The position numbers and the translations under genes are program-made. From IMG/VR virus record IMGVR_UViG_3300033149_001248, positions 1 to 60,850 of that record: a stretch of 60,850 nucleotides of DNA. One strand, 5' to 3'. The notes below the pieces were generated by a model. It made no database searches. It saw only the letters and a list, made by a program, of their open reading frames with translations, and was not told where the DNA came from. This document shows positions 5,908-29,027 of this stretch, one piece after another. Positions within the stretch are counted from its first letter, which is position 1. The number at the start of each line of letters is the position of its first letter. This stretch comes from a virus. Lineage: Duplodnaviria; Caudoviricetes.

Positions 5908-5935
5908 TTGACTTGCCGATAGGATTAGCTATAAT
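5908..5935 (+). promoter_or_regulatory. Sigma70-type promoter TTGACT-16-TATAAT
   Basis: Near-consensus hexamers upstream of ORF 5993. Confidence 0.75.
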
Positions 5936-5992
5936 GGAGGTGTCGGTTGAACGTTATTCGTTTCGTTAACCCGTTCGTGAAGGAGTGGAGCA

Positions 5993-6337
5993 ATGGCTAA
6001 GACCCGTACCCCCAAAACCACGAAGACCACCAAGACCGCGAAGAAACCGGCCGCGAAGAAACCGGCCAAGAGCAACGGCCCGGCGTTGGGCAAGGTCCAC
6101 GTTCGGATTCTCCGAGCGCTCGCCAAGTCTGGAAAGCCTATGTCTCGTACCCAACTGGCCAAAGCAGCCCAAGTCCACCCGTCGGTCATCGGCAAATATG
6201 CCGGGTACGTCAACCCCGATATCAACGCCCGGCCCGTTCATAGCGGGAACCTGCTCAACCAGGGAATGGTTAAGATTGAAGCGCACCCCGACGGAACATA
6301 CTACGCTATTACCCCTAAGGGCCGTAAGGCCGTATAG
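5993..6337 (+). CDS. Small basic winged-helix DNA-binding protein with Lys/Ala/Thr-rich N-terminal tail
   Basis: AGGAG RBS; KTAKKPAAKKPAK; RILRAL...MSRTQLAKAA...YAITPKG wHTH pattern. Confidence 0.75.
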   Translation: MAKTRTPKTTKTTKTAKKPAAKKPAKSNGPALGKVHVRILRALAKSGKPMSRTQLAKAAQVHPSVIGKYAGYVNPDINARPVHSGNLLNQGMVKIEAHPDGTYYAITPKGRKAV

Positions 6338-6368
6338 CGGCCCCGTAAACAGCCATAGCCACAGCCTA

Positions 6369-6404
6369 GGCCCCCTAGCCCCGTATCGGCTAGGGGGTCT
6401 TTTC
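6369..6404 (+). terminator. Intrinsic terminator
   Basis: CCCCCTAGCC/GGCTAGGGGG stem followed by TCTTTT. Confidence 0.75.
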
Positions 6405-7385
6405 TTATGGGTACAGGTGTTTGTACGGTTCGTTAGACACATCATCAAATCTCCCCTCTAGAATGGCCTGCCGGTTTCTAGCGACTATGGCTCTTGTATT
6501 CTTGGAGTAAGACGTTGCTTGCCAACGACGTTCTCGCCACCCAAGAAACTTCGGTCTCGGGGGAAACTCCCGATGCGCGTATCGTTCCCAATAGACGGCT
6601 AGCGGGTCGGTTCCCTCAATCAAGCAGATTAGTAGATCACGGCATAGCTCTATAGCGGTCAATACCTGCTCCGGCGTTTCCGCCTGGAAAAACGGCCGGA
6701 ACTCGATTGTATCGCTTTGGAGTAGCTGCCGGATATTAACCGTCGGCCTTGGTTGGGCGTGGTATAGCGGCTTTCCCGCTTTCGACCAGGGGCACTCTAG
6801 GCTGATTAGCTCCTCAACGGTTTTAGCCTCTAGCTGCTTACGAACTCGGTATTCGGGGATAATCGTCCAATGACTCCGTTTGATATGAGCTAGCCACTGT
6901 TTCAGTAACTTCCTATCGGCCGTTGTTTCGCAGGGATAATAGTCGGCATCTAGCGGGTCGATGACCTCTAGAAACGGACGCAAATTGAGACAATTGGTTT
7001 GTATCCGTTTCAGAATCTCAAGACCCCGCTCCCGTAAGCCGGGAACCCGGATATGGACTTGGGTACCTGCCCGGTGGGTTACTCTAGTTTCAGGGAATCG
7101 GGTTAGAAACTCATGGAACAGCTGGGCCTGCCCGTCCGGGGTATCGGTCGGCGGGGTGTTAATCTCCGCTCCAAACGGGTAGTCTTTCAGCGTTGGGTCG
7201 CCTGCTATTCCGTTCGTGTTTGTAATCTGAGGTTCTGGGTCTCGACCGTAGCCCTCCCAACCCCGGCGGGTGTCCCAGTCGGACAGCTCGTGCTCCGCTC
7301 CATAGGTCCAATACTTCGGGTCGAGCCAGTGATACTTAGCTATTCCCCATAGTCGTTGCCGTTTCTTCCGTTGTTTCTTCGCCAT
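6405..7385 (-). CDS. Putative amidoligase (glutamine-synthetase/glutamate-cysteine-ligase-like COOH-NH2 ligase)
   Basis: YGAEHE, GAEINTPP, GTQVHI, TVNIRQL, TIEFR motifs. Confidence 0.75.
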   Translation of the reverse strand: MAKKQRKKRQRLWGIAKYHWLDPKYWTYGAEHELSDWDTRRGWEGYGRDPEPQITNTNGIAGDPTLKDYPFGAEINTPPTDTPDGQAQLFHEFLTRFPETRVTHRAGTQVHIRVPGLRERGLEILKRIQTNCLNLRPFLEVIDPLDADYYPCETTADRKLLKQWLAHIKRSHWTIIPEYRVRKQLEAKTVEELISLECPWSKAGKPLYHAQPRPTVNIRQLLQSDTIEFRPFFQAETPEQVLTAIELCRDLLICLIEGTDPLAVYWERYAHREFPPRPKFLGWRERRWQATSYSKNTRAIVARNRQAILEGRFDDVSNEPYKHLYP

Positions 7386-18922: not shown

Positions 18923-19114
18923 CTAGCTCTTAGGGTAGATAACCGCTTCAATAGTATCTCCGTTGATCGTTATAGATACCCGGCGGTTGTATCGTACAGC
19001 AGCGTTACGAATCTGGCAAGCCATCCCGTGAGGTTGGCAACTAAAGTCTCGGCCCCGTACCAACACTAGTCGTTTTCGATTCATCCACTTTTTCCACGGG
19101 TAGAGTCGCTTCAT
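18923..19114 (-). CDS. Small basic hypothetical protein (possible DNA binder), first gene of the leftward operon
   Basis: GGAGG RBS; MKRLYPWKKW...LVRGRDF. Confidence 0.55.
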   Translation of the reverse strand: MKRLYPWKKWMNRKRLVLVRGRDFSCQPHGMACQIRNAAVRYNRRVSITINGDTIEAVIYPKS

Positions 19115-19157
19115 GGGAACCCTCCTATGCTTTAGGGAAACGAAACCTACTCTTACA

Positions 19158-19200
19158 ATTATAGCTACCCGGCCGGTGTAGTCCCCGAGCCGGGTATAAT
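19158..19200. promoter_or_regulatory. Divergent TATAAT boxes at the left/right transcription switch
   Basis: TATAAT on minus 19158-19163 and on plus 19195-19200; -35 boxes poor. Confidence 0.45.
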
Positions 19201-19262
19201 CGGAGTAGGAGAGCCAAACAAAACCGTTTTGGAGACTATCCACTAGAGAAAGGGGATGTAAA

Positions 19263-19565
19263 ATGGGTGCCCAAGCCGACAAACAAGTGCCGTGGGAAGT
19301 TGTTAATACAAATCAGGGTTATGCGATTCGCGGTGACTGTAAGGCCTCTAATGGCGCGGTTATTCAACGATATATCGCACAACTTATCCCAGACAAACGC
19401 ACAGCCAAACTCATGGCTTGTGCGAAGAAAATGAAGACACTGCTTGAGGACGTCACCCAATACCTCGCTGATGGACCCACTGGTGAAGAGTCGGGTTGTC
19501 AAGACATCAAGGGGCAGCGCCTTTATCGTGAAATTTGCAAACTGCTCAGGGGGCTGAGAAAGTGA
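19263..19565 (+). CDS. Hypothetical protein
   Basis: RBS and ORF followed by a terminator-like hairpin. Confidence 0.6.
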   Translation: MGAQADKQVPWEVVNTNQGYAIRGDCKASNGAVIQRYIAQLIPDKRTAKLMACAKKMKTLLEDVTQYLADGPTGEESGCQDIKGQRLYREICKLLRGLRK

Positions 19566-19584
19566 GCTATTACACAATCGCAAC

Positions 19585-19660
19585 GGGAGCGGGGGTCGTT
19601 TCTCTCCAGCCACTTCCCCTCGTTCGTCTGTCACCCTACGGCGCCCGCTCCCCTGTTTTT
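19585..19660 (+). terminator. Large-loop hairpin plus T-run
   Basis: GGGAGCGGG/CCCGCTCCC then TGTTTTT. Confidence 0.5.
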
Positions 19661-19700
19661 CTAGCTAGATTCCCCCAGAATCCCCGCAGAAAATGGGGGG

Positions 19701-19729
19701 TTTACTAGCTCCGAACGACTAGCTATAAT
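19701..19729 (+). promoter_or_regulatory. Promoter TTTACT-17-TATAAT
   Basis: Upstream of ORF 19807. Confidence 0.6.
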
Positions 19730-19806
19730 AGCTACATAGGTTTCGTTCCCTACGGTCGGGGAACGGAGAACGGATCAATGGTTTCTAGCTGATTGGAGGA
19801 TCGACC

Positions 19807-21504
19807 ATGGCGAAGTCGAAGACGAAACGGAAGACCGGGGCTAAGGCCCCTACCCCCGCCGTACCCCAGGAGCCTACGGCACGGGTCTGCATCGGGGCAG
19901 ACGCTATAACTGCCGATCAAGCCAAGACGCTCCTAGGCTGGTCGGCGGAAACCGAACAGGTACGCTTCGGCACCGACTACCTACTCAAGGACTACCACGG
20001 GGTAAAGGTCCGTTGTCTCAACAACGTTCATAACCGGCCCCTCTATACGTCGGTGGTACAGACGTTGAAGCAGGAAATTCTCAGAAAGCGCTGGCGATTC
20101 AACGGTGAACCGATCATCGTTGGCAAGAACGGCTCGATCCTGAACGGCCAGCATACCCTAGTCGCCCTGGTACTAGCCGACCAGGAGTGGCGGGAATCCG
20201 AGTGTTGGAAGGCTTACTGGGAAGACGCCCCGGTGATCGAGAAAATGATCGTTTACGGAGTGGGCGAGGCAGACGAAGTAGTCAATACGATGGACACCTG
20301 CAAGCCCCGGTCGCTGACCGACGTAATCTATCGCAGCGAATACTTCGCCCATATCGGTTCTAAGGACCGTAGGGCCTGCGCTCGTATGGCGGACTACGCA
20401 GTGCGGTTGCTTTGGCATCGAACCGGGGCAACCCTCGACGCTTTTGCTCCCCGCCGTACTCACTCGGAGTCGCTAGACTTCATCAACCGGCACCCTAAGA
20501 TTCTCGAAGCCGTAGCGCATATCTATCAGGAAGACCGGGGCAAGCCTATCTCGAAACTCATCCCTGCGGGGTATGCTGCTGGGCTGCTGTATCTGATGGG
20601 CTGCTCGGATACCGACCCGTCAGAGTACCAAGACGCCCAACTGCCTAACGAGTCGTTGCTCGATTGGAGTCGGTGGCCTGAGGCGTGCGACTTTTGGGTA
20701 GCGCTTCAAGCCGACCCGAAGCTAGCCGCTGCCCGCAAGATGTTGCTCATGGGCCGGGAACATGGCATGTCGCACCAAGAACGTTGGGCCGTGGTAGTCA
20801 AGGCCTGGCACGTATTCTTGAAAGGCCGGACGGTTTCCGACTCTGACCTGAGGCTTAGCTATCGGGAAACCGAAGACGGGGTTAGGATTCTTGATGAGTG
20901 CCCCGTGGTTGGAGGCATCGACGTGGGTGATCCCCGATTGGTTGATGAATCGTTGCTTCCCGGCAAAGACCCGACCCCCCAGGAGATAGAGCAACGAGCC
21001 AAACAGGTACGGGAGAAACGAAACGGCCAAAAGCCTAAAGCCTCAACCAAGCGACGGCCTAAGCTCAAGCCTCACAAGGCCGGAAACGATTGGGCTGTTG
21101 GTGACGTAGCCTGGGTAGTCGATCCGGGTATGCCGGATGAACCCTACCTGGCGCGAATCGTTGATGTTTATGACTTGGGGCATGAAGAGGTAGCGATAAC
21201 CGTTGAGGATCAAGACGGCAATCAGTGGGAAGCTAGGCCGGATTGGCTTCAGCTAGAACCGGCTACGACCAAAACCGAGTCGGCTAATTCCCCTTCCCCC
21301 CAGAAACGGAAACGCCAAACGGCTCCCAAATTGGGCAAGACCTATTGGGTTAACGAACCGGACGGGGAACCTTGGCGGGGCAAGCTCATGAACCTAGACG
21401 GAGAAACGGCTACCCTCAAAGTGATTAACGGGTTTCAGGGGGCGGGCACAAAGCGTCAAACCCCCGTTGCCCGTCTAAGTACGGAGCAACCCGTGCGGGA
21501 CTAG
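19807..21504 (+). CDS. ParB/Srx-like N-terminal domain protein with C-terminal SH3/KOW-like modules
   Basis: WRFNGEPII...LNGQHTLVAL resembles the DGQHRL motif; two short beta-rich C-terminal modules. Confidence 0.55.
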   Translation: MAKSKTKRKTGAKAPTPAVPQEPTARVCIGADAITADQAKTLLGWSAETEQVRFGTDYLLKDYHGVKVRCLNNVHNRPLYTSVVQTLKQEILRKRWRFNGEPIIVGKNGSILNGQHTLVALVLADQEWRESECWKAYWEDAPVIEKMIVYGVGEADEVVNTMDTCKPRSLTDVIYRSEYFAHIGSKDRRACARMADYAVRLLWHRTGATLDAFAPRRTHSESLDFINRHPKILEAVAHIYQEDRGKPISKLIPAGYAAGLLYLMGCSDTDPSEYQDAQLPNESLLDWSRWPEACDFWVALQADPKLAAARKMLLMGREHGMSHQERWAVVVKAWHVFLKGRTVSDSDLRLSYRETEDGVRILDECPVVGGIDVGDPRLVDESLLPGKDPTPQEIEQRAKQVREKRNGQKPKASTKRRPKLKPHKAGNDWAVGDVAWVVDPGMPDEPYLARIVDVYDLGHEEVAITVEDQDGNQWEARPDWLQLEPATTKTESANSPSPQKRKRQTAPKLGKTYWVNEPDGEPWRGKLMNLDGETATLKVINGFQGAGTKRQTPVARLSTEQPVRD

Positions 21505-21521
21505 CTCCTACCTTTCCCCAG

Positions 21522-21583
21522 AAACCCTAGGGCGGGGTGGGGGTTTCCGGCCGGATTCCCGGCCCCGTTGCCCTAGGGTTTTT
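21522..21583 (+). terminator. Hairpin terminator
   Basis: AAACCCTAGGGC/GCCCTAGGGTTT plus T-run. Confidence 0.6.
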
Positions 21584-21691
21584 GGCGGAAAATTTGGGGT
21601 TTTTCAAAAAAACTTGTCGCCCTAAGTCCTTAATTTTCAACTACTTAGGAAACCGGCCCAGAAAAACTTGATAAAATTGGGGTTATGGGGG

Positions 21692-21719
21692 TTGACTTGT
21701 TCAACCGATTAGGTATAAT
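21692..21719 (+). promoter_or_regulatory. Early promoter TTGACT-16-TATAAT
   Basis: Near-consensus, AT-rich upstream region, heads the small-gene array. Confidence 0.8.
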
Positions 21720-21832
21720 AGACCGTAGAACGATTGAGATTTACGGTTCTTTGAAAATTTGAGCGGCCCCGACCTCCAGGCCCTGGTGGTGGACCGGTAC
21801 AAAGCCCGGCGGGGATGGGCGAACGAACCGAA

Positions 21833-21907
21833 ACCGAAAACTCCGCTCCTCAAACGAGCGGGGTTCGCGTAGGGCTGGGCTCCCTACGCCTGATGATGGT
21901 AGCCCGG
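21833..21907 (+). ncRNA. Type II hammerhead ribozyme with loop-I pseudoknot; predicted cleavage after C21866
   Basis: ACC-GAAA-stem III (10 bp)-UC-stem I (8 bp, loop CUGGGCU)-CUGAUGA-U-GGU-AGCCCGG. Confidence 0.88.
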
Positions 21908-21936
21908 TTTTTCGACTCTTTATAGGGAGAACGGTC

Positions 21937-22110
21937 ATGGCTAACAAAGAAACGAAGGATAAGCCCCACAAATCTATTGAGATTTACGGGGTACGGGGGC
22001 TCAAGAGCCGACCCTTCCGACGGGTTTTTAATAGTCAACGAGCGCTCGAACGTTGGCTTGAGAAAAACGGAGACGATTGCGAAGTTTACGGGTATCGGGA
22101 ACTCAACTAA
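21937..22110 (+). CDS. 57-aa hypothetical early protein (below track cutoff)
   Basis: GGGAGA RBS; MANKETKDKPHKSIEIYGVRG... Confidence 0.65.
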   Translation: MANKETKDKPHKSIEIYGVRGLKSRPFRRVFNSQRALERWLEKNGDDCEVYGYRELN

Positions 22111-22167
22111 ATTCAGAAGATAGGAACCCGGTTTTCGATTCTATTACGCTAGCCTAGGGGAACGATC

Positions 22168-22506
22168 ATGGCGACCACGAAAAATGTTAGCTTCCGGGCG
22201 GGTTATAGTCGAATGAACCTGACTATCCCACGGCGGCACGCCCGCCACCTGCTCTCCGTCTTGGGGTTCTACCCGGACGGGATTCTCAGCGAGCCGGAAG
22301 GCGAGCTAGATGCCGGAGAATTGTATATCGCTATCGCTCAGCTGCGGCATAAAATCATGCTGGGCGAGGATTCCGGCCTGGCTCTGGCTCCGACTAAAAA
22401 CGATTCGGGGCTTACCCGAGAGCAATTCGTTGAGCTGCTGGACCGATTCTCTCGGGTCGTCCAACGGGCCGTCGATATTTGGACCGACGTGCTCTACGTT
22501 GCTTAG
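22168..22506 (+). CDS. Hypothetical early protein (paralog of next gene)
   Basis: RBS; NLTIPRRHARHLLSVLGF...GELDA. Confidence 0.7.
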   Translation: MATTKNVSFRAGYSRMNLTIPRRHARHLLSVLGFYPDGILSEPEGELDAGELYIAIAQLRHKIMLGEDSGLALAPTKNDSGLTREQFVELLDRFSRVVQRAVDIWTDVLYVA

Positions 22507-22541
22507 TCCGGCTTACCCCTACCCTATCTAGGAGAAACACC

Positions 22542-22901
22542 ATGGCGCTTACGTTTACCGCAGGCACGGATTACGATATTACCATCTCCAACGTCAACGC
22601 CCGATGGCTTCTGGAAGCGCTCGGGTACGATACCCGGGAGCTTCTGGACGAAACGGGGTGGACGGGGGAGCTTAACCCCGTTGACCTGGGTCGGCGGTTG
22701 GTAAAGCTCGACCTGGCCCGTACCTACCAACCGACGGAGTTTACTCGGAGCGGTCGGGTAGAAAAGGATGCCGATGGCGTCACGGTCTATGACGGCGGGA
22801 TTGACCCGCTCCGGCTCGACGATTATATCGTTGGGCTTCAACAACTGGCCCTGGCCGCTATCGTAATGGAGGGCTCGGATCACGTGATCCGATATTACTA
22901 A
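22542..22901 (+). CDS. Hypothetical early protein
   Basis: GGAGA RBS before MALTFTAG; DITISNVNARWLLEALGY...GELNP. Confidence 0.7.
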   Translation: MALTFTAGTDYDITISNVNARWLLEALGYDTRELLDETGWTGELNPVDLGRRLVKLDLARTYQPTEFTRSGRVEKDADGVTVYDGGIDPLRLDDYIVGLQQLALAAIVMEGSDHVIRYY

Positions 22902-22908
22902 TCCCGAC

Positions 22909-22957
22909 TCCGCCCGTGCCGGAAAACGGAACGGCCGAATCGCACGGGGATTCGGCC
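22909..22957 (+). ncRNA. Kissing-hairpin motif copy 1
   Basis: TCCG[CCCGTGC]CGGA ... GGCCGAATC[GCACGGG]GATTCGGCC. Confidence 0.75.
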
Positions 22958-22996
22958 CCCTAGTACTACCCCTCACTTTGCCTAGGAGAAACGATC

Positions 22997-23368
22997 ATGG
23001 CTACCACCTACAAGACGTTCAACCGGAATACGATTCGGGGTGCTTTTCGGCGGGTTGCCGAATCGGTAGGGTTCCGTTTCCGGGGCGCTGAGACGCAGCC
23101 CTACAATTTTATCAGTTGGTTCGACTACCCGGCCGGGGTGAAGACCCCGACCGGCCGTTATAAGGCTATCCGCCGTCTGCTCAAAGCCCTGGACGAAAAC
23201 GGGGTACTGGCCCAATCTACGGGTCACGAAGGGGAATGGATAATCGGCAATAACCTGGCCTGGCTTTCGCTGGACGACCGAGAAGTGGTCGGAGCCGACT
23301 TCGTACTGGAAGTGCCCCGAACCGCCCGCACAGCGTTGTTCCGCCGGTATGGTCGTGAGGCCGAATAG
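22997..23368 (+). CDS. Hypothetical early protein
   Basis: CTAGGAGAAACGATC RBS. Confidence 0.7.
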   Translation: MATTYKTFNRNTIRGAFRRVAESVGFRFRGAETQPYNFISWFDYPAGVKTPTGRYKAIRRLLKALDENGVLAQSTGHEGEWIIGNNLAWLSLDDREVVGADFVLEVPRTARTALFRRYGREAE

Positions 23369-23439
23369 TCCGATAGGTTACGTTCGGGTCGGGCCGGTTT
23401 TCCGGCCCGGCCTAACCTTAACTACCTGGAGAAACGATT

Positions 23440-23862
23440 ATGTCTAGCCCGAGAATGCTGCTCTGCGACACCGTTGACCGAATCTATAACGAACTCCAAA
23501 AGCCGATTAACCGATTCAAGCATGCCGTCGAAGACGACGGCCCGACTTACGCCGTCCGCTATTGCTTGTTTGAAGCATTGGTTGCCGAAGCGCTCCGCGA
23601 ATCGCTAGCGGAGTTTCAGGCCGACGTTCCCACCCAAGACGCGGTACGGGGGTGGCTCGACCAGCTAATCGAGGCGAAGACCGAAGAAACGCTGCGATGT
23701 GCAGCGGAGTTTGCTAGCCGTGACCATAACCCGGAAACCGCCGCTCGCCGTAGGGCGTTGGTCGTCTTCGTCCACCTGCTCAAGCAGTTGGCTACGGCTT
23801 GGCGAGCCGTCACCGAGGACGGGGCCGACCCCGTAACGGCCTTTGAAACCGTCACTGTCTGA
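23440..23862 (+). CDS. Hypothetical early protein
   Basis: GGAGAAACGATT RBS. Confidence 0.7.
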   Translation: MSSPRMLLCDTVDRIYNELQKPINRFKHAVEDDGPTYAVRYCLFEALVAEALRESLAEFQADVPTQDAVRGWLDQLIEAKTEETLRCAAEFASRDHNPETAARRRALVVFVHLLKQLATAWRAVTEDGADPVTAFETVTV

Positions 23863-23889
23863 GCTCCTCGTTTCGCTAGCCTAGGGAGA

Positions 23890-24144
23890 ATGACTATGAA
23901 AAAGCCAATTCGCTGCTATGGCCAATACGCTAGCCCTAACATCGTACAGGAAGTCTATGAGACGGCCAGTCGTGACGCTGGCCGTCGGGTTCGCCAGCTA
24001 CGGAAAGCCGGATTCCAAGCGGTTAGCAGTCCGATGGGGCCACAGGTCACCCCGGTCGGGGTTGTTAAGCTCACCATGGTAACTATCTTTACTACCGAGT
24101 CGGAGCGGTTGCCGACGGACAATTGGAAACTCATAAGGCTCTAG
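23890..24144 (+). CDS. Hypothetical early protein
   Basis: CTAGCCTAGGGAGAA leader. Confidence 0.7.
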   Translation: MTMKKPIRCYGQYASPNIVQEVYETASRDAGRRVRQLRKAGFQAVSSPMGPQVTPVGVVKLTMVTIFTTESERLPTDNWKLIRL

Positions 24145-24203
24145 TCTAGGGAAAGCTAACCGGCTTTCTCTGTTTCGTTTCCTCTAGCCTAGGGAGAACG
24201 ATT

Positions 24204-24494
24204 ATGGAACGATTTTGGTTGACTTGGGGTCCGCAGCGGTTTCCTCAATTTATGTGTTTCACCGTTTGCGGAGAACAGGTCAAGGTTGTCGGACCTATCG
24301 GGTCGGGCTTCGTTGACCGCTCCGTCATGTCCCGTAACGAAGCGCGAACCCTGTGGCGTAGGTATCTTAGCCGGGGTTGGCGTCCGGCCGACCCGGCTAT
24401 CGTACCACCATGGGTAGCCCGCAAGGCCCGTAGGCTGGCCGTAGGGGATACGACGGTTTTCAATTTGGAAACCCCGGCCCGTCCGGTCTGCTAG
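24204..24494 (+). CDS. Hypothetical early protein
   Basis: CTAGCCTAGGGAGAA leader. Confidence 0.7.
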   Translation: MERFWLTWGPQRFPQFMCFTVCGEQVKVVGPIGSGFVDRSVMSRNEARTLWRRYLSRGWRPADPAIVPPWVARKARRLAVGDTTVFNLETPARPVC

Positions 24495-24502
24495 AAACCC
24501 AG

Positions 24503-24555
24503 CCCTGCCCGCACCAGGGAAGCGACGCCCGACCGAACCGTGCGGGGGTTCGGTC
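24503..24555 (+). ncRNA. Kissing-hairpin motif copy 2
   Basis: CCCTG[CCCGCAC]CAGGG ... GACCGAACC[GTGCGGG]GGTTCGGTC. Confidence 0.75.
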
Positions 24556-24684
24556 TTCGCTCCGTCTAGGAGACAGCCATGAATCTCCAAGAACCAGTTG
24601 ACCGGGGCTATCGTCCAAGCATGGCCTGACGCTACGGAATACCAGCGCGGACGGCCCTAATCTTCGAGCAATAGGGAGCCCACG

Positions 24685-25143
24685 ATGTGCTACCTAGTAC
24701 TAATCGACGGTCAGGTACGTGGCCGCCACACCCGGCTTGCATATGCCAATCGGGCGGCCCGAGCATATGCTGCTAGCCGACCGGGTAGAGTCGTGCTAGT
24801 AGTTAAGCAGACGGGGAAACGGCGCAGGCCTGTAGCGCTGGCCTACAAAGTCCTAGGTTCCCGACCCGTACCTATGGGGTTGGTAGTAACCCGGCTCCTA
24901 CGGCTACTGCGTCGTTGGCGAGCTAACGAAAGCACCCCGCAAAACTTCGGTTGGTTCGATGGGGATTATGAGCGGCAGCTAGAGCAGGCCGCGGCAAGCC
25001 TAATCCGCTCCCACGGGTATGACCCCGATACGTTTTGGGAGCGGGTACGAGCGGTTACAACCGACCACTGGGCGACCAAATACCTCAGTTGGTTGCCCCT
25101 AGGCGACTACCTACCTTCGACCATTAAGCCTTTCGGAGAATAG
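24685..25143 (+). CDS. Hypothetical early protein
   Basis: GGGAG RBS, co-oriented ORF. Confidence 0.65.
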   Translation: MCYLVLIDGQVRGRHTRLAYANRAARAYAASRPGRVVLVVKQTGKRRRPVALAYKVLGSRPVPMGLVVTRLLRLLRRWRANESTPQNFGWFDGDYERQLEQAAASLIRSHGYDPDTFWERVRAVTTDHWATKYLSWLPLGDYLPSTIKPFGE

Positions 25144-25145
25144 CC

Positions 25146-25346
25146 ATGAACCTAACCGAGTTTGAACGCTGCCGTAAGACCCTCACCGACGCGATTCGGG
25201 TAGCCGGTCGGGTCGAGCGGCAGACCGGCCTTCCTGCCTACGTATATCGACAGACGACCGGCCCTGAGCCGGTTTTCGTAATCGTATCCCGCCCACCGAT
25301 TCATGGTACGTGGTGGGATAGCGACGGAGTGAAGCACGAATCCTAA
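25146..25346 (+). CDS. Hypothetical early protein
   Basis: GGAG RBS, coupled to previous gene. Confidence 0.6.
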   Translation: MNLTEFERCRKTLTDAIRVAGRVERQTGLPAYVYRQTTGPEPVFVIVSRPPIHGTWWDSDGVKHES

Positions 25347-25382
25347 CCCCCTACCCCCGTTTTTTCGCAAGGAGAACTGACC

Positions 25383-25586
25383 ATGAAAGCAACTGAACTC
25401 CGAATCAACGAAGTCTATTTGGCGAAGGTTTCTGGCCGAATCGTGCCCGTGCGGTTGGACCGGATTCAACTACGTATCCACCATAGCTCCGGTCGGGCCT
25501 ACAGGGAGTATCATGTAACAAACCTCAGAACGGGCCGCAAGCTAACCTTCCGAAGCCCCCAGCGCTTTCGACGCTCCGCCGTCTAG
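25383..25586 (+). CDS. Small basic hypothetical protein
   Basis: AAGGAG RBS; YLAKVSGRIVPVRL...TNLRTGRKLTFRS. Confidence 0.7.
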   Translation: MKATELRINEVYLAKVSGRIVPVRLDRIQLRIHHSSGRAYREYHVTNLRTGRKLTFRSPQRFRRSAV

Positions 25587-25597
25587 CAACGAGAACC

Positions 25598-25647
25598 CCG
25601 CCCGCGCCGGAATTGCCCTGGGCCGTTGCTGCGCGGGAGCGCGGCCC
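25598..25647 (+). ncRNA. Kissing-hairpin motif copy 3
   Basis: CCG[CCCGCGC]CGG ... GGGCCGTTGCT[GCGCGGG]AGCGCGGCCC. Confidence 0.7.
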
Positions 25648-25667
25648 AACCCTAGTGGAGGAAAACA

Positions 25668-26021
25668 ATGGGCGTAAAGATTCCACGTATAATCAGCCAC
25701 AAAAACATGGGTCCATTGCTGAAAGCGTTGTCCGAAGAACCCTGTTATCAACCAGGGTCGCAGACAGCGCCGCAGCCAGAGGATTGGCACCAACGGCCGG
25801 TTTGGTTAGAGGTGCCTGTTGGTGAATTGGTCCGGGATGAACTAACGACTTTAGCGCTGGTGGGGCGCAACCCATACGAAATTGTGCCCTTGACCGGGAA
25901 GGAAGGATTCCGTGCCCAAGGTTTGGAGGGGAAAGTCCGTATTCGGAAGACCCTCTTTGCGGCCTTGATGGCTCTTCGAGACATTGTGCCTCAATATCGG
26001 GGTCGAATCGTGGTAAGCTAG
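25668..26021 (+). CDS. Hypothetical early protein
   Basis: GGAGG RBS. Confidence 0.65.
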   Translation: MGVKIPRIISHKNMGPLLKALSEEPCYQPGSQTAPQPEDWHQRPVWLEVPVGELVRDELTTLALVGRNPYEIVPLTGKEGFRAQGLEGKVRIRKTLFAALMALRDIVPQYRGRIVVS

Positions 26022-26028
26022 CTCTTGC

Positions 26029-26084
26029 CCCGCCTGCGCCGGGAAAGCCGAACGGGGGTCGGTATCGCGCAGGGGTGCCGACCC
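26029..26084 (+). ncRNA. Kissing-hairpin motif copy 4
   Basis: CCCG[CCTGCGC]CGGG ... GGGTCGGTATC[GCGCAGG]GGTGCCGACCC. Confidence 0.75.
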
Positions 26085-26108
26085 GTTTTACTAGTCTAGG
26101 AGAATCCG

Positions 26109-26357
26109 ATGATTACCGAAGAACAACGACGTCAGTTGCTTGACTTAGTTGGCCAACGTACCCAAACCGAAGACGACGGGCTACGGAACCGGCTAGCCGA
26201 CCTGATCGAACAGGTCATCAAGAGTGGAACGGCCGACCCTTACGAGCAGGGGGTGCTAACGATGCTTCGGTTTGCGAACCTGTCGAGGCGGATTCACCCC
26301 CAGGTTCGGTCCTGCGTAGAATTGGCCCTAACGTTCTACTGGCTGGCCGCAACGTAG
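26109..26357 (+). CDS. Hypothetical early protein
   Basis: CTAGGAGAA RBS. Confidence 0.65.
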   Translation: MITEEQRRQLLDLVGQRTQTEDDGLRNRLADLIEQVIKSGTADPYEQGVLTMLRFANLSRRIHPQVRSCVELALTFYWLAAT

Positions 26358-26374
26358 TAGTAGGGGGAACCGCT

Positions 26375-26788
26375 ATGAAAACGAAGACCGTCTATAAAGT
26401 GCTTAGACGGAGCGGGGGCCGGTTGCTTTCGTCCAACATAGCCGTTCCCGGATGGGAAACCGAATACCAACCCGGCCAACCGACCTATCCTCCACCCCTC
26501 AGCTATCTTTATGCCTTTGATAGTCTAGCCGGTGCTAGGCAATTCGCTAGGGCGATGAACGCCCGGGTAATTAAAAGTCTTCCCGGGGTGGAATATGAGG
26601 TTTGGCAGGCTGAGGCCGAAGTCGTTGACCAAAAACCCCGCCGGATTCACTGGCCGGATACCCCGCCAATCCTAAGGGCATTCTGGGCTAACCAAGACTT
26701 CCCCCTACGGGCTGAAAACTATCCCAGCGCCCCGCCGGGAACGGTCTGGTGTCGATTCGTAACTATTCAATTCAAGCTAAAGGAGTAA
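26375..26788 (+). CDS. Hypothetical early protein
   Basis: RBS, co-oriented. Confidence 0.65.
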   Translation: MKTKTVYKVLRRSGGRLLSSNIAVPGWETEYQPGQPTYPPPLSYLYAFDSLAGARQFARAMNARVIKSLPGVEYEVWQAEAEVVDQKPRRIHWPDTPPILRAFWANQDFPLRAENYPSAPPGTVWCRFVTIQFKLKE

Positions 26789-26791
26789 GTC

Positions 26792-27082
26792 ATGACGCTA
26801 GTTTACAGAGTCGTTCGGCTCGATACCTATGTCCTTAACCAGAAACAGAGGAAAGCCGTTGAGGCGGTCCTGGCTAAGATTCGGGAACTGGGCGCCCAGG
26901 GTATCGACCTGGCCGATGCCCGTTACCGAGTGGTCCGTGCGTTGCGGAATAACAGACCGTTGTATCTGGAAACGGGTTACGCTGGTGGTCCCGGCCGTTT
27001 GTTCGAACCAGTCGATCATAATGACCGGATCGAGGCGGAAACGCTCTGCCAAACTTCGACCCGATGGTTCCGGCTCGTATAA
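26792..27082 (+). CDS. Hypothetical early protein
   Basis: AAGGAG RBS. Confidence 0.6.
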   Translation: MTLVYRVVRLDTYVLNQKQRKAVEAVLAKIRELGAQGIDLADARYRVVRALRNNRPLYLETGYAGGPGRLFEPVDHNDRIEAETLCQTSTRWFRLV

Positions 27083-27127
27083 AATCTAGTTTCGCTTCCA
27101 ACCCACTAGCCTAGGGAGAACGTATCC

Positions 27128-28696
27128 ATGACCGAAGCTAAGACCAAAACTCGAACCAAACGCAAACCCCGTTCGGCTCGGAAGAAACCCGCCCCGCATT
27201 TGATTATCGAGGCCAGAGCGGGTACGGGCAAGACTACGACCCTCATTGAAGGGTTACGGGTTATCACGGGGAAGAAACCCCGGATCAAACCCTCAGAACA
27301 GCAAAGCCGTATTTGGGACGCCATGCGACAGGGGCCGAAACCTAAAACCGTTTGCTTCGTGGCGTTCAACAAGTCGATTGCTACGGAGCTTCAACGACGG
27401 GTTCCGGCCGGTTGTTCGGCCTCGACACTCCATAGCCTAGGGCTTCAGATTATCCGCCAGTCGTATCCCCGGATACGAGTCAACGGAAGTCGAACGGTGA
27501 ACTTACTAGCGGAGCACCTAGGCTATACCCCCAGGGAACTTCGCCGTGACCCGTTCTGGGGGTCGATGGTTTCGCCAATCAGCCAACTAGTACGCCTTGC
27601 TAAGCTCAACCTAATCGACCCCGATCCGACGGCCCTATACGAGCTAGCTTTGCGCTACGGCATAGAGGCCGATGAACGGGTCTGCTCAACGGCAGCCCGT
27701 ATCCTAGAACGTGCCCGTTCGCTGGACGATAATGAGGTTGACTTCGATGACATGGTTTGGCTAGGCGGGGAACTGCCAACGTCAACCATGTTCGACTTGC
27801 TCCTGGTTGACGAAGCCCAAGACCTCAACCCGGCTCAACAACGGCTCGTTCAACGGGTAGGCCGTCGGCTCATCCTCTGCGGTGATCCGTGCCAGGCTAT
27901 CTACGGTTTTGCCGGAGCGGATACCGAAAGCATGACCCGGATGGAGTCGGCCCTATCGCAAACCGAAGTCGGGGTTGAGCACTTGCACCTCACCGTTACC
28001 CGTCGCTGCGGACGGGCGATTGTTGAAGAGGCGAAACCCTACGTTCCCCAGTTTGAAGCGCACCCGGATAATCCCGAGGGTCGAGTTAGCTTTACCCAGC
28101 TAACCGGCCCCCAGGGTTCAACGGTGCTAGACCTAGCGGAACCTGGCGACATGGTTCTGAGTCGGGTCAACGCCCCGCTCGTATCGCTCTGCTTCCGGTT
28201 CATCAAAGCCGGTCGGAAAGCGTCGATCCAGGGGCGCGACATAGGCCAAAACCTAACTAGTACAATCAACCGGCTCTGCAAGCCGGATGATACGGTGGTC
28301 CGGCTCCTAGACCGGCTAGCCGAATGGCTAGACCGGGAAGTGTCCAAAGAACGGGCCAAGGCCGGGGGCCGTTACAATCCTGAAGGGCGCATCGCAGCCC
28401 TCCAAGACCGGCACGATTGTATCGTGGCGTTTACTGACGAAGCAAAGACGGTGCGCGAAGTGCTTGCTAAAATCGAGCAAGTGTTTACCGATGACGAAGA
28501 CCGGCCTGATATCCGGTTATCGTCTATCCATAAGGCTAAGGGCCTGGAGGCTGACCGGGTCTTTGTTCTCCGGAACCGTCACGCCCCGCTGCCTCACCCC
28601 ATGGCTAAACTGGCATGGGAAAAAGAGCAGGAACGTAACCTAACCTACGTAGCTATTACCCGAGCTATTCAAACCCTCGTTTGGGTAGGCGACTAA
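27128..28696 (+). CDS. UvrD/Rep-family SF1 helicase
   Basis: ARAGTGKTT, VDEAQD, GDPCQAIYGF, SIHKAKGLE, YVAITRA. Confidence 0.92.
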   Translation: MTEAKTKTRTKRKPRSARKKPAPHLIIEARAGTGKTTTLIEGLRVITGKKPRIKPSEQQSRIWDAMRQGPKPKTVCFVAFNKSIATELQRRVPAGCSASTLHSLGLQIIRQSYPRIRVNGSRTVNLLAEHLGYTPRELRRDPFWGSMVSPISQLVRLAKLNLIDPDPTALYELALRYGIEADERVCSTAARILERARSLDDNEVDFDDMVWLGGELPTSTMFDLLLVDEAQDLNPAQQRLVQRVGRRLILCGDPCQAIYGFAGADTESMTRMESALSQTEVGVEHLHLTVTRRCGRAIVEEAKPYVPQFEAHPDNPEGRVSFTQLTGPQGSTVLDLAEPGDMVLSRVNAPLVSLCFRFIKAGRKASIQGRDIGQNLTSTINRLCKPDDTVVRLLDRLAEWLDREVSKERAKAGGRYNPEGRIAALQDRHDCIVAFTDEAKTVREVLAKIEQVFTDDEDRPDIRLSSIHKAKGLEADRVFVLRNRHAPLPHPMAKLAWEKEQERNLTYVAITRAIQTLVWVGD

Positions 28697-28711
28697 CCTA
28701 GGAGACTAACC

Positions 28712-28921
28712 ATGGTCAGACCAAAGACCCCGAAGACCCGCTGCGCTAACTGCGGTAAGACGATGACCGACCCGATGCAAGAGCGCTACACCTGCCCCTA
28801 CTGCGGTTGTAGCCCCGTTCCGAGTCGGGTTTACCCGGCGGATAGCGGCTTTCATCCCAAGACCCTAACCCCCCGGCTCCGCCAACTAATCGAGCAACGG
28901 CGCAGGGCCGCTCAGAGCTAG
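28712..28921 (+). CDS. Small Zn-ribbon protein
   Basis: CANCG...CPYCG. Confidence 0.7.
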   Translation: MVRPKTPKTRCANCGKTMTDPMQERYTCPYCGCSPVPSRVYPADSGFHPKTLTPRLRQLIEQRRRAAQS

Positions 28922-28984
28922 GCTAGAGCCTCGGTTGTTCGTTATCGCCCGCTCCGCCATACCATATAGCCGTTTTCCCTAGGC

Positions 28985-29027
28985 ACCGCCCCCGTAGTTA
29001 GCTCGTAGCGCTGCGGGGGCGGTTTTT
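28985..29027 (+). terminator. Intrinsic terminator ending the early operon
   Basis: ACCGCCCCCGTAG/CTGCGGGGGCGGT plus T-run. Confidence 0.8.

What the first reader, a model, noticed from the sequence alone, without database searches (positions are those of the whole stretch)
21833..21907. Type II hammerhead ribozyme in the leader of the early operon
All core elements are present: GAAA (21836-21839), 10-bp stem III, UUC cleavage triplet, 8-bp stem I, CUGAUGA (21890-21896), a single U insertion, stem II ACC/GGU, and a 7-bp pseudoknot between loop I CUGGGCU and downstream AGCCCGG, as in known type II hammerheads. It lies about 110 nt after the promoter and 30 nt before the first gene. Inference: self-cleavage gives the early mRNA a 5'-OH end and releases a structured RNA of about 140 nt.
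Basis: partly seen in the sequence, partly recalled or inferred. Interest (0 to 1): 0.75.

Follow-up and report, generated by a model that had tools for sequence, protein, structure and literature searches.

The report
Phage hammerhead ribozyme before early genes
A well-formed self-cutting hammerhead RNA sits between a strong promoter and the first small gene of a phage operon; it is a new example of a common, already described kind of phage ribozyme.

Summary
Rfam's Hammerhead_II model (RF02276) matches 21832-21908(+) at 37.4 bits, against a gathering score of 37. The default-filter scan missed it. A covariance model built from 44 type II hammerheads of other viral contigs, window excluded, scores it 48.0 bits (E 4.5e-11); the next best hit in the window is 12.3 bits. 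None of 300 composition-matched random windows gave a comparably formed motif.

The "single U insertion" after A9 is a recurrent trait of phage and metagenome type II hammerheads, not a defect. The loop I/tail pseudoknot covaries in the family.

The ribozyme lies after a strong terminator hairpin and an 11-of-12 sigma-70-like promoter. It ends 29 nt before a 57-codon ORF with a Shine-Dalgarno site.

Most likely it cuts the leader after C21866, leaving an mRNA with a 5'-OH end and a terminal hairpin. Cleavage is inferred, not shown. The claim of a specially "structured" 140-nt leader is not supported.

This is a new member of a known kind (Perreault 2011; halovirus HF1/HF2 precedent). This scan has noted many phage hammerheads on other DNA. 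Interest is low to moderate.

The parts
21518..21590 (+). Intrinsic-terminator-like hairpin plus U5 that closes the upstream 565-codon gene (stop at 21504)
   Evidence: Fold gives -51.1 kcal/mol, z -5.06, with 0 of 200 shuffles as stable. Sequence read.
21692..21719 (+). Sigma-70-like promoter TTGACT-16-TATAAT; predicted start near 21726
   Evidence: 11 of 12 matches. One of 2 sites with at least 11 of 12 in the whole window, against a mean of 0.2 in 100 random sequences. The start site is inferred, not mapped.
21726..21866 (+). Predicted 5' cleavage fragment (leader, about 141 nt, would end in a 2',3'-cyclic phosphate)
   Evidence: Length follows from the predicted start and C17. Fold z -0.79, so it is not specially structured.
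21832..21908 (+). Type II hammerhead ribozyme, whole motif
   Evidence: RF02276 at 37.4 bits against gathering 37. R1 at 48.0 bits, E 4.5e-11.
21833..21835 (+). Stem II, strand 11.3-11.1 (ACC)
   Evidence: Pairs with GGU 21898-900. The outer pair is A-U here and G-C in most relatives, with 14 both-sided changes in the family.
21836..21838 (+). Core G12 A13 A14
   Evidence: these columns are invariant in alignment A1.
21839..21865 (+). Stem III hairpin: 10 pairs including A15.1-U16.1, loop 21849-55
   Evidence: present in every fold.
21866..21867 (+). Cleavage site: C17 (21866) | G1.1 (21867)
   Evidence: Position follows from the hammerhead consensus. Cleavage itself was not tested.
21867..21889 (+). 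Stem I hairpin: 8 pairs, loop I CUGGGCU 21875-81. It would be the 5'-terminal hairpin of the processed mRNA.
21890..21896 (+). Core C3 U4 G5 A6 U7 G8 A9 (CUGAUGA)
21897..21897 (+). Extra U between A9 and G10.1
   Evidence: The same extra U occurs in 11 of 15 well-formed relatives that did not match the fetching pattern.
21898..21900 (+). Stem II, strand 10.1-10.3 (GGU)
21901..21907 (+). Pseudoknot 3' strand AGCCCGG, pairs with loop I 21875-81
   Evidence: 7 pairs with one G.U. The central 5 pairs sit in the family register and covary.
21924..21930 (+). Shine-Dalgarno-like AGGGAGA
   Evidence: Read; lies 6 nt before the ATG.
21937..22110 (+). First ORF of the operon (57 codons, no known family)
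   Evidence: The only database match is itself.

Best explanation
The stretch 21832-21908(+) encodes a genuine type II hammerhead self-cleaving ribozyme. It belongs to the pseudoknot-stabilised kind that is common in phages.

The proposed sequence of events is as follows. Host RNA polymerase starts at the sigma-70-like promoter, near 21726. Once about 180 nt have been made, stems III, I and II form, and the tail AGCCCGG pairs with loop I. The RNA then cuts itself between C21866 and G21867. This detaches a leader of about 141 nt that carries the triphosphate end and finishes in a 2',3'-cyclic phosphate. The operon mRNA is left with a 5'-OH on G21867. Its 5' end is the 8-bp stem I hairpin, 70 nt upstream of the first start codon.

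The likely benefit is a fixed, promoter-independent 5' end for the small-gene operon. A 5'-OH end closed by a hairpin is a poor entry point for 5'-monophosphate-dependent RNase E. Transcripts reading through the upstream terminator would be trimmed to the same 5' end.

Shown here: the motif, its family membership, its uniqueness in the genome and its placement. Inferred: the transcription start, the cleavage itself, and the effect on mRNA stability or translation.
For: - The core and all three helices are intact.
- RF02276 reaches its gathering score, 37.4 against 37.
- Model R1, built from 44 hammerheads of other viral contigs, gives 48.0 bits, E 4.5e-11; the next best hit in the window is 12.3 bits.
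- A strict descriptor rang in 0 of 300 random windows.
- Family helices are 97-98% paired with many both-sided changes (that alignment was fitted to the model).
- The pseudoknot, which is not part of the model, is 64.6% paired against 53.8% in shuffles (0 of 500 reach it). Its covariation score is 0.339, against 0.186 in shuffles and 0.04-0.18 in the slid controls.
- The unconstrained minimum-energy fold of the 235- and 265-nt precursors contains all three hammerhead stems.
- In relatives, the next same-strand ORF starts a median of 34 nt after the ribozyme (42 of 73 within 60 nt), against 230 nt for random positions. The window's 26-29 nt fits this.
- The promoter and terminator bracket the leader.
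- Passages of PMC3088659 state that type II hammerheads with a loop I/tail pseudoknot cleave fast and that the pseudoknot is needed. They also state that in haloviruses HF1/HF2 a hammerhead lies 13 nt before the first early gene, with the transcript 5' end mapped within 3 nt of the cleavage site.
- Abstract and passages of PMC8782182: three type II hammerheads beside phage-like genes in Desulfovibrio vulgaris cleave in vivo and in vitro.
- Passage of PMC1636495: an extra nucleotide between A9 and G10.1 occurs in the active CChMVd(+) hammerhead, with only a moderate loss of rate.
Against: - No cleavage or transcript data exist for this sequence.
- The Rfam score clears the threshold by only 0.4 bit. 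The default-filter scan and the own-genome family search (whose controls also rang in 0 of 14) did not report the motif.
- No relative of this phage with the same gene neighbourhood was found. There is therefore no lineage-specific conservation test.
- The relatives were fetched with a pattern taken from this motif's core, so part of the R1 score is by construction.
- A short-range fold (21825-21915) prefers a hairpin that uses the pseudoknot strands in place of stem I.
- The family usually sits in short gaps between genes, a median of 7.5 nt after the previous ORF. Here it lies 327 nt after the previous ORF and behind its own promoter.
- The direction of any stability effect depends on the host. 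From recall: the 5'-OH produced by the glmS ribozyme triggers RNase J1 decay in Bacillus (Collins 2007, seen here only as a reference entry). The host of this phage is unknown.
Confidence: 0.8

Rival explanations
1. The motif is a hammerhead by descent but is slow or inactive in this context. Possible causes are the extra U, the fully paired 7-nt loop I, or competing folds. It would then persist as a neutral relic or act only as a set of leader hairpins.
For: The Rfam score is borderline. An alternative hairpin uses the pseudoknot strands in the 91-nt fold. A second copy of AGCCCGG at 21803-09 could compete for loop I. Perreault 2011 reports that small changes in the geometry of stems I and II or the pseudoknot lower rates by orders of magnitude (passage). 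It is a single copy with no conserved relatives in this context.
Against: Every conserved core base is intact. The extra U is shared by most relatives. Stem lengths (I 8 bp, II 3 bp) and the pseudoknot register are those of the family. Long-range folds keep all three stems. The upstream AGCCCGG sits in its own small hairpin in the minimum-energy fold.
Confidence: 0.12
2. The functional product is the released leader, not the mRNA end. The ribozyme would define the 3' end of a small RNA of about 141 nt, which carries one copy of the 14-nt repeat ATTGAGATTTACGG, or would time its release.
For: A strong promoter lies 106 nt upstream. The 14-nt repeat occurs at 21733-46 and again at 21976-89; 2 of 100 shuffles give 2 or more matches.
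Against: The leader folds no better than shuffles (z -0.79). No Rfam family matches it. The repeats are direct, so the two RNAs would not pair with each other. Relatives of the ribozyme mostly have no leader at all.
Confidence: 0.05
3. The resemblance is by chance, and the hairpins plus the U tract 21908-12 act as a transcription attenuator or terminator in the leader.
For: The helix CUGGGCU/AGCCCGG is followed directly by UUUUU, and the 91-nt fold makes it a hairpin.
Against: The terminator scan reports no + strand site here. The loop would be 19 nt. Chance does not explain an intact 11-base core in the right places (0 of 300 random windows; E 4.5e-11).
Confidence: 0.03

Closest known systems
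Type II hammerhead ribozymes with a loop I/3'-tail pseudoknot (Rfam RF02276; Perreault et al. 2011, PMC3088659; passages and section 6 read)
   Same: Same topology: stems I and III capped, stem II open. Same core and short stem II. The pseudoknot starts immediately after stem II. Intergenic position in a phage genome.
   Different: An extra U lies between A9 and G10.1, which the Rfam model treats as an insertion. The pseudoknot is 7 bp and uses the whole loop I, against 4-6 bp in most relatives. There is a single copy behind its own promoter, not a cluster between genes.
HHphage of haloarchaeal viruses HF1/HF2 (discussed in PMC3088659; passage)
   Same: A hammerhead lies a few nucleotides upstream of the first ORF of an early polycistronic transcript. 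There the mapped 5' end coincides with the cleavage site. A helicase belongs to the same operon in both.
   Different: HHphage is a salt-adapted core variant in an archaeal virus and lies 13 nt before the helicase gene itself. Here the core is the consensus, the proteome is basic and the signals are bacterial in type. The helicase is the last gene of the block, not the first.
Clustered hammerheads flanking single genes in prophages, for example around ardA in Agrobacterium tumefaciens (PMC3088659, section 6), and the arrays noted by this scan on other DNA
   Same: Same ribozyme family, and the same short distance to the next ribosome-binding site.
   Different: Those cut a long transcript between cistrons. 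This genome has only one, and it cuts a leader.
RiboJ-type synthetic ribozyme insulators (described in PMC7536230; passage)
   Same: Works alike: a hammerhead placed between promoter and ribosome-binding site normalises the 5'-UTR and leaves a hairpin at the new 5' end.
   Different: RiboJ is engineered from a type III satellite-RNA hammerhead with an added hairpin. This one is natural and type II. Its insulating effect is inferred.
CChMVd(+) viroid hammerhead with an extra A10 (PMC1636495, passage; De la Pena and Flores 2001 seen only as a reference)
   Same: One extra nucleotide between A9 and G10.1 in a natural, active hammerhead.
   Different: It is an A, not a U; the hammerhead is type III, in a viroid, and the extra base has a second role in viroid folding.
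Desulfovibrio vulgaris type II hammerheads (PMC8782182; abstract and passages)
   Same: Type II hammerheads beside phage-like genes, with activity shown in vivo and in vitro.
   Different: Chromosomal or prophage loci. No promoter-leader arrangement is described in the passages I read.

Membership tests
Hammerhead ribozyme, type II (RF02276) | Core strand C3 U4 G5 A6 N7 G8 A9 | tested here: met
   CUGAUGA at 21890-96.
Hammerhead ribozyme, type II (RF02276) | Core strand G12 A13 A14, followed by the A15.1-U16.1 pair | tested here: met
   GAA at 21836-38; A21839 pairs with U21865.
Hammerhead ribozyme, type II (RF02276) | Cleavage-site nucleotide H17 (not G) between stem III and stem I | tested here: met
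   C21866; the triplet is UUC.
Hammerhead ribozyme, type II (RF02276) | Three helices around the core, with stems I and III capped and stem II open (type II order) | tested here: met
   Stem III 10 bp, stem I 8 bp, stem II 3 bp. All three appear in the unconstrained fold of the precursor.
Hammerhead ribozyme, type II (RF02276) | G10.1-C11.1 pair directly adjoining A9 and G12 | tested here: inconclusive
   C21835 adjoins G12, but G21898 is separated from A9 by U21897. The same extra U is present in 11 of 15 well-formed relatives that did not match the fetching pattern. The position tolerates an extra base in CChMVd(+). This is a variant, not a break.
Hammerhead ribozyme, type II (RF02276) | Tertiary contact: a pseudoknot of at least 4 bp between loop I and the bases immediately 3' of stem II | tested here: met
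   7 bp, 21875-81 with 21901-07. The family register is the same and it covaries.
Hammerhead ribozyme, type II (RF02276) | Covariance-model score at or above Rfam's gathering score | tested here: met
   37.4 bits against 37 with the permissive filters. Not listed by the default-filter scan. 48.0 bits with model R1.
Hammerhead ribozyme, type II (RF02276) | Mg-dependent self-cleavage giving 2',3'-cyclic phosphate and 5'-OH ends | not testable with these tools
Gene-flanking hammerhead clusters of prophages (Perreault 2011) | Several hammerheads close together, flanking single genes or short blocks | tested here: not met
   Only one match in 60,850 bases. R1 with filters off gives a next best of 12.3 bits. 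Rfam E-value scans of the remaining three parts gave nothing.

The most novel reading that the evidence does not exclude
The ribozyme is a tunable processing switch and not a constitutive cutter. The promoter-proximal leader holds a second copy of the pseudoknot strand (AGCCCGG, 21803-09), which is transcribed first and could capture loop I. A 14-nt element is repeated just after the start site and inside the first ORF. Binding of a phage or host factor to the leader would then decide whether the pseudoknot forms. That would set how much early mRNA is released with a protected 5' end, and when a free leader RNA of about 141 nt appears.
Probability: 0.05. Interest if true: 0.6.

Novelty: new member of a known kind. 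Interest (0 to 1): 0.27.

Why it matters
This adds one clean, assayable example of a hammerhead placed between a host-type promoter and the first gene of a phage operon. That layout was inferred for haloviruses HF1/HF2 and is imitated by synthetic RiboJ insulators. Because there is a single ribozyme with a defined promoter, it is a simple natural system for asking what a 5'-OH, hairpin-capped mRNA end does for phage early expression. It also shows that Rfam's type II model, run with default filters, misses the common variant with an extra U after A9. Annotation pipelines therefore probably under-count these ribozymes. It does not change what is known about hammerheads.

Tried and rejected
- **Close relatives with the same neighbourhood.** None was found by any of these searches:
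  - blastn of 21500-23500 against named phages;
  - the 565-codon protein in viral contigs and in metagenome contigs (56 pattern matches, none confirmed);
  - the helicase in viral contigs (6 loci at 29-41% identity, none with a convincing hammerhead);
  - the first ORF in the protein collection (itself only);
  - tblastx and blastn of 19001-29000 against the 14 metagenome loci (nothing printed).
- **An exact 19-base stretch of the ribozyme in viral contigs.** It gave 2 hits, both without the rest of the motif, so they are chance matches.
- **Sequencing runs.** None was listed, and no RNA holder was listed.
- **The genome search on the window's own record with RF02276.** It gave 0 matches, but the controls rang in 0 of 14, so the result is uninformative.
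- **Cleavage unmasking the ribosome-binding site.** The mean unpaired probability of 21924-31 is 0.41 or 0.40 in the precursor and 0.37 or 0.25 in the 3' product. In the precursor the site pairs locally with 21916-20, not with the leader. Not supported.
- **A structured leader RNA.** z -0.79; rejected.
- **A haloarchaeal host.** The idea came from the best portal hit, Halorubrum phage Hardycor1, at 34% identity. It is rejected because 17 of 22 long proteins have a pI above 7.9, and 16 of them above 8.7, unlike acidic halophile proteomes. The host stays unknown. No tRNA genes were found.
- **Coverage limits.** The review PMC3334697 is not held. Supplements of PMC3088659 (alignments, Figures S1-S7) could not be seen; they may already show the extra-U form. 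The 18 or so pattern loci after L107 were not searched with R1 (one search took 99 of them).

Full report
**What the window is.** It is one IMG/VR virus record of 60,850 bases, estimated 86% complete. PHROG and Pfam matches give a tailed phage with three blocks.
- Bases 1-18.8 kb, minus strand: replication and nucleotide genes (primase, thymidylate synthase, DNA polymerase, Sak4-like protein, exonuclease, Holliday-junction resolvase).
- Bases 29.5-60.8 kb, minus strand: structural genes (terminase, portal, head morphogenesis, tape measure).
- Bases 19.8-28.7 kb, plus strand: a 565-codon gene of unknown function, then the region in question, then about fifteen small ORFs without any family, then a UvrD-type helicase.

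**The observation.**
- ACC at 21833-35;
- GAA at 21836-38;
- stem III of 10 pairs, from A21839-U21865 inwards, with one G.U and loop 21849-55;
- C17 at 21866;
- stem I of 8 pairs, 21867-74 with 21882-89;
- loop I CUGGGCU at 21875-81;
- CUGAUGA at 21890-96;
- one extra U at 21897;
- GGU at 21898-900, pairing with ACC;
- the tail AGCCCGG at 21901-07, complementary to all seven loop I bases.

**Is it more than chance?** Rfam's default gathering scan of the whole window listed nothing. With the permissive filters, Hammerhead_II (RF02276) matches 21832-21908 end to end at 37.4 bits. Its gathering score is 37. The E-value is 2.6e-6 on 301 bases and 9.6e-5 on 11 kb. The first blank was therefore a filter loss.

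My own descriptor (core words plus three helices) finds exactly one type II motif in the window. In 300 composition-matched random windows the loosest version rang in 2% and the stricter versions in 0 of 300.

**Relatives.** No phage with the same gene neighbourhood could be found. I then searched viral contigs with a pattern that fixes only core letters: CCGAAA, a gap, TC, a gap, CTGATGATGG.
- Most of these turned out to have all three helices and a loop I/tail pseudoknot, although the pattern demands none of them.
- After removing duplicates, 44 well-formed examples plus the window aligned with the consensus AGCC-GAAA-C...GUC...UGG...CUGAUGA-U-GGC-AG.CC.
- RNAalifold recovered the three stems, with compensatory changes in 13 of 14 pairs.
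- A covariance model from the 44, with the window left out (R1), scores the window's motif 48.0 bits, E 4.5e-11, with filters off. The next best hit in 60,850 bases is 12.3 bits. The genome therefore holds one hammerhead.
- Rfam E-value scans of the other three parts of the window found nothing of any family.

Searching 99 of the pattern loci plus the window with R1 gave 81 matches in 56 sources. On that alignment the three stems are 97-98% paired with many both-sided changes. This leans on the model's fit.

The pseudoknot is not in the model. In the register used by the window it is 64.6% paired, against 53.8% in shuffles (0 of 500 reach it), with lower values in all slid controls. One caveat applies: the 44 seeds were chosen with a pseudoknot of at least 4 bp.

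**The extra U.** Rfam's model also treats it as an insertion, which explains the borderline score. In the family it is common. Of 57 unique well-formed hammerheads in the fetched loci, 42 match the fetching pattern. Of the 15 that do not, 11 have the U and 4 have none. Several of the 11 differ from the pattern only in spacing. Among those with different letters the split is about even.

Forms with and without the U occur side by side on one contig. The outer stem II pair is G-C in most relatives and A-U in the window, a compensated change. An extra base at this position is known in the active CChMVd(+) hammerhead (passage of PMC1636495).

**Placement.**
- The upstream 565-codon gene ends at 21504. 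It is followed by a hairpin of -51.1 kcal/mol (z -5.06) and UUUUU.
- TTGACT-16-TATAAT lies at 21692-21719. Only two sites in the window reach 11 of 12 matches, against a mean of 0.2 in random sequence. A third, similar site (10 of 12) precedes the 565-codon gene.
- This puts the start near 21726 and the ribozyme about 106 nt into the transcript. The 5' fragment would be about 141 nt.
- AGGGAGA at 21924-30 and ATG at 21937 follow 29 nt after the pseudoknot.
- In relatives the next same-strand ORF starts a median of 34 nt after the ribozyme, and the previous one ends a median of 7.5 nt before it. 51 of 81 are clear of long ORFs, against 403 of 1620 random positions.
- So the distance to the next gene is typical of the family, but a promoter-proximal single copy is not the usual layout.

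**How it most likely works.** The mechanism follows from hammerhead chemistry and from Perreault et al. 2011 (PMC3088659: abstract, section 6 and passages). The RNA cleaves itself co-transcriptionally after C21866. The mRNA then starts at G21867 with a 5'-OH, and stem I forms its 5'-terminal hairpin. The leader leaves with the triphosphate end.

The same paper reports the closest precedent. In haloviruses HF1/HF2 a hammerhead lies 13 nt before the first ORF of an early polycistronic transcript, and the mapped 5' end lies within 3 nt of the cleavage site. Three type II hammerheads next to phage-like genes in Desulfovibrio vulgaris cleave in vivo and in vitro (PMC8782182). Synthetic RiboJ insulators work the same way (PMC7536230, passage).

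The effect on stability is inferred. Protection from 5'-end-dependent RNase E is established knowledge that I recall. The opposite outcome, RNase J1 attack on 5'-OH ends in Bacillus, is also recalled. The host is unknown.

**What did not hold.**
- The leader is not specially structured (z -0.79).
- Cleavage does not clearly free the ribosome-binding site.
- A short-range fold prefers an alternative hairpin over stem I, although longer precursors fold into all three hammerhead stems.
- No sequencing run was listed.

**Verdict.** This is a real and probably active type II hammerhead. It is a new member of a known kind, in a layout with a published precedent. This scan has already noted hammerheads on much other DNA: 371 notes in at least 257 genomes.

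Noticed in passing
window 5908-5935, 19701-19729, 21692-21719 (+): Three plus-strand sigma-70-like promoters share one form: a G/C run, TTGACT or TTTACT, 16-17 nt, then TAGSTATAAT. Two of them reach 11 of 12 matches, against a mean of 0.2 such sites in random sequence. They look like the phage's set of host-polymerase promoters.
   Followed up: partly
window 5981-6461 (+): The 5908 promoter lies inside the minus-strand replication arm and faces a plus-strand ORF (Shine-Dalgarno GAAGGAG, ATG 5994). The ORF encodes a very basic Lys/Ala/Pro/Thr-rich protein of histone-H1-like composition. The overlapping minus-strand ORF 5966-6448 is probably spurious.
   Followed up: no
window 21733-21746 and 21976-21989 (+): An exact 14-nt direct repeat, ATTGAGATTTACGG, occurs just after the predicted start site and again inside the first ORF. 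The second copy sits in an imperfect 12-bp hairpin, 21964-91. In 2 of 100 shuffles there were 2 or more matches. It may be a pair of operator or protein-binding sites.
   Followed up: partly
window 21803-21809 (+): A second copy of the pseudoknot strand AGCCCGG lies in the leader, 66 nt before loop I. It could compete for loop I, but in the minimum-energy fold it is held in a small local hairpin, 21804-08 with 21816-20.
   Followed up: partly
window 21907-21913 and 21926-21932 (+): GUUUUUC, directly after the pseudoknot, is complementary (with G.U pairs) to GGAGAAC in the Shine-Dalgarno region. The pairing appears in the minimum-energy fold of the 3' product but not in the centroid. Accessibility hardly differs between precursor and product.
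   Followed up: yes
window, whole; proteins of at least 281 aa: The proteome is unusually basic: 16 of 22 long proteins have a pI of 8.8-10.3. The best portal matches are haloarchaeal (Halorubrum) and Brevundimonas siphoviruses at 30-34% identity. The host is unresolved.
   Followed up: partly
L023, L027, L051, L064, L067, L070, L127, L128 and others: Many viral and metagenome contigs carry 2-4 type II hammerheads in successive intergenic gaps, often starting right after a stop codon and ending about 15-30 nt before the next start codon. Forms with and without the extra U occur on the same contig.
   Followed up: partly
Rfam RF02276 alignment: The model's printed consensus pairs a G with a G in stem II and leaves the C before GAAA unpaired. 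This looks like a one-column offset in the family's stem II annotation. Together with the extra U, it costs this motif score, and the default filters miss it.
   Followed up: no
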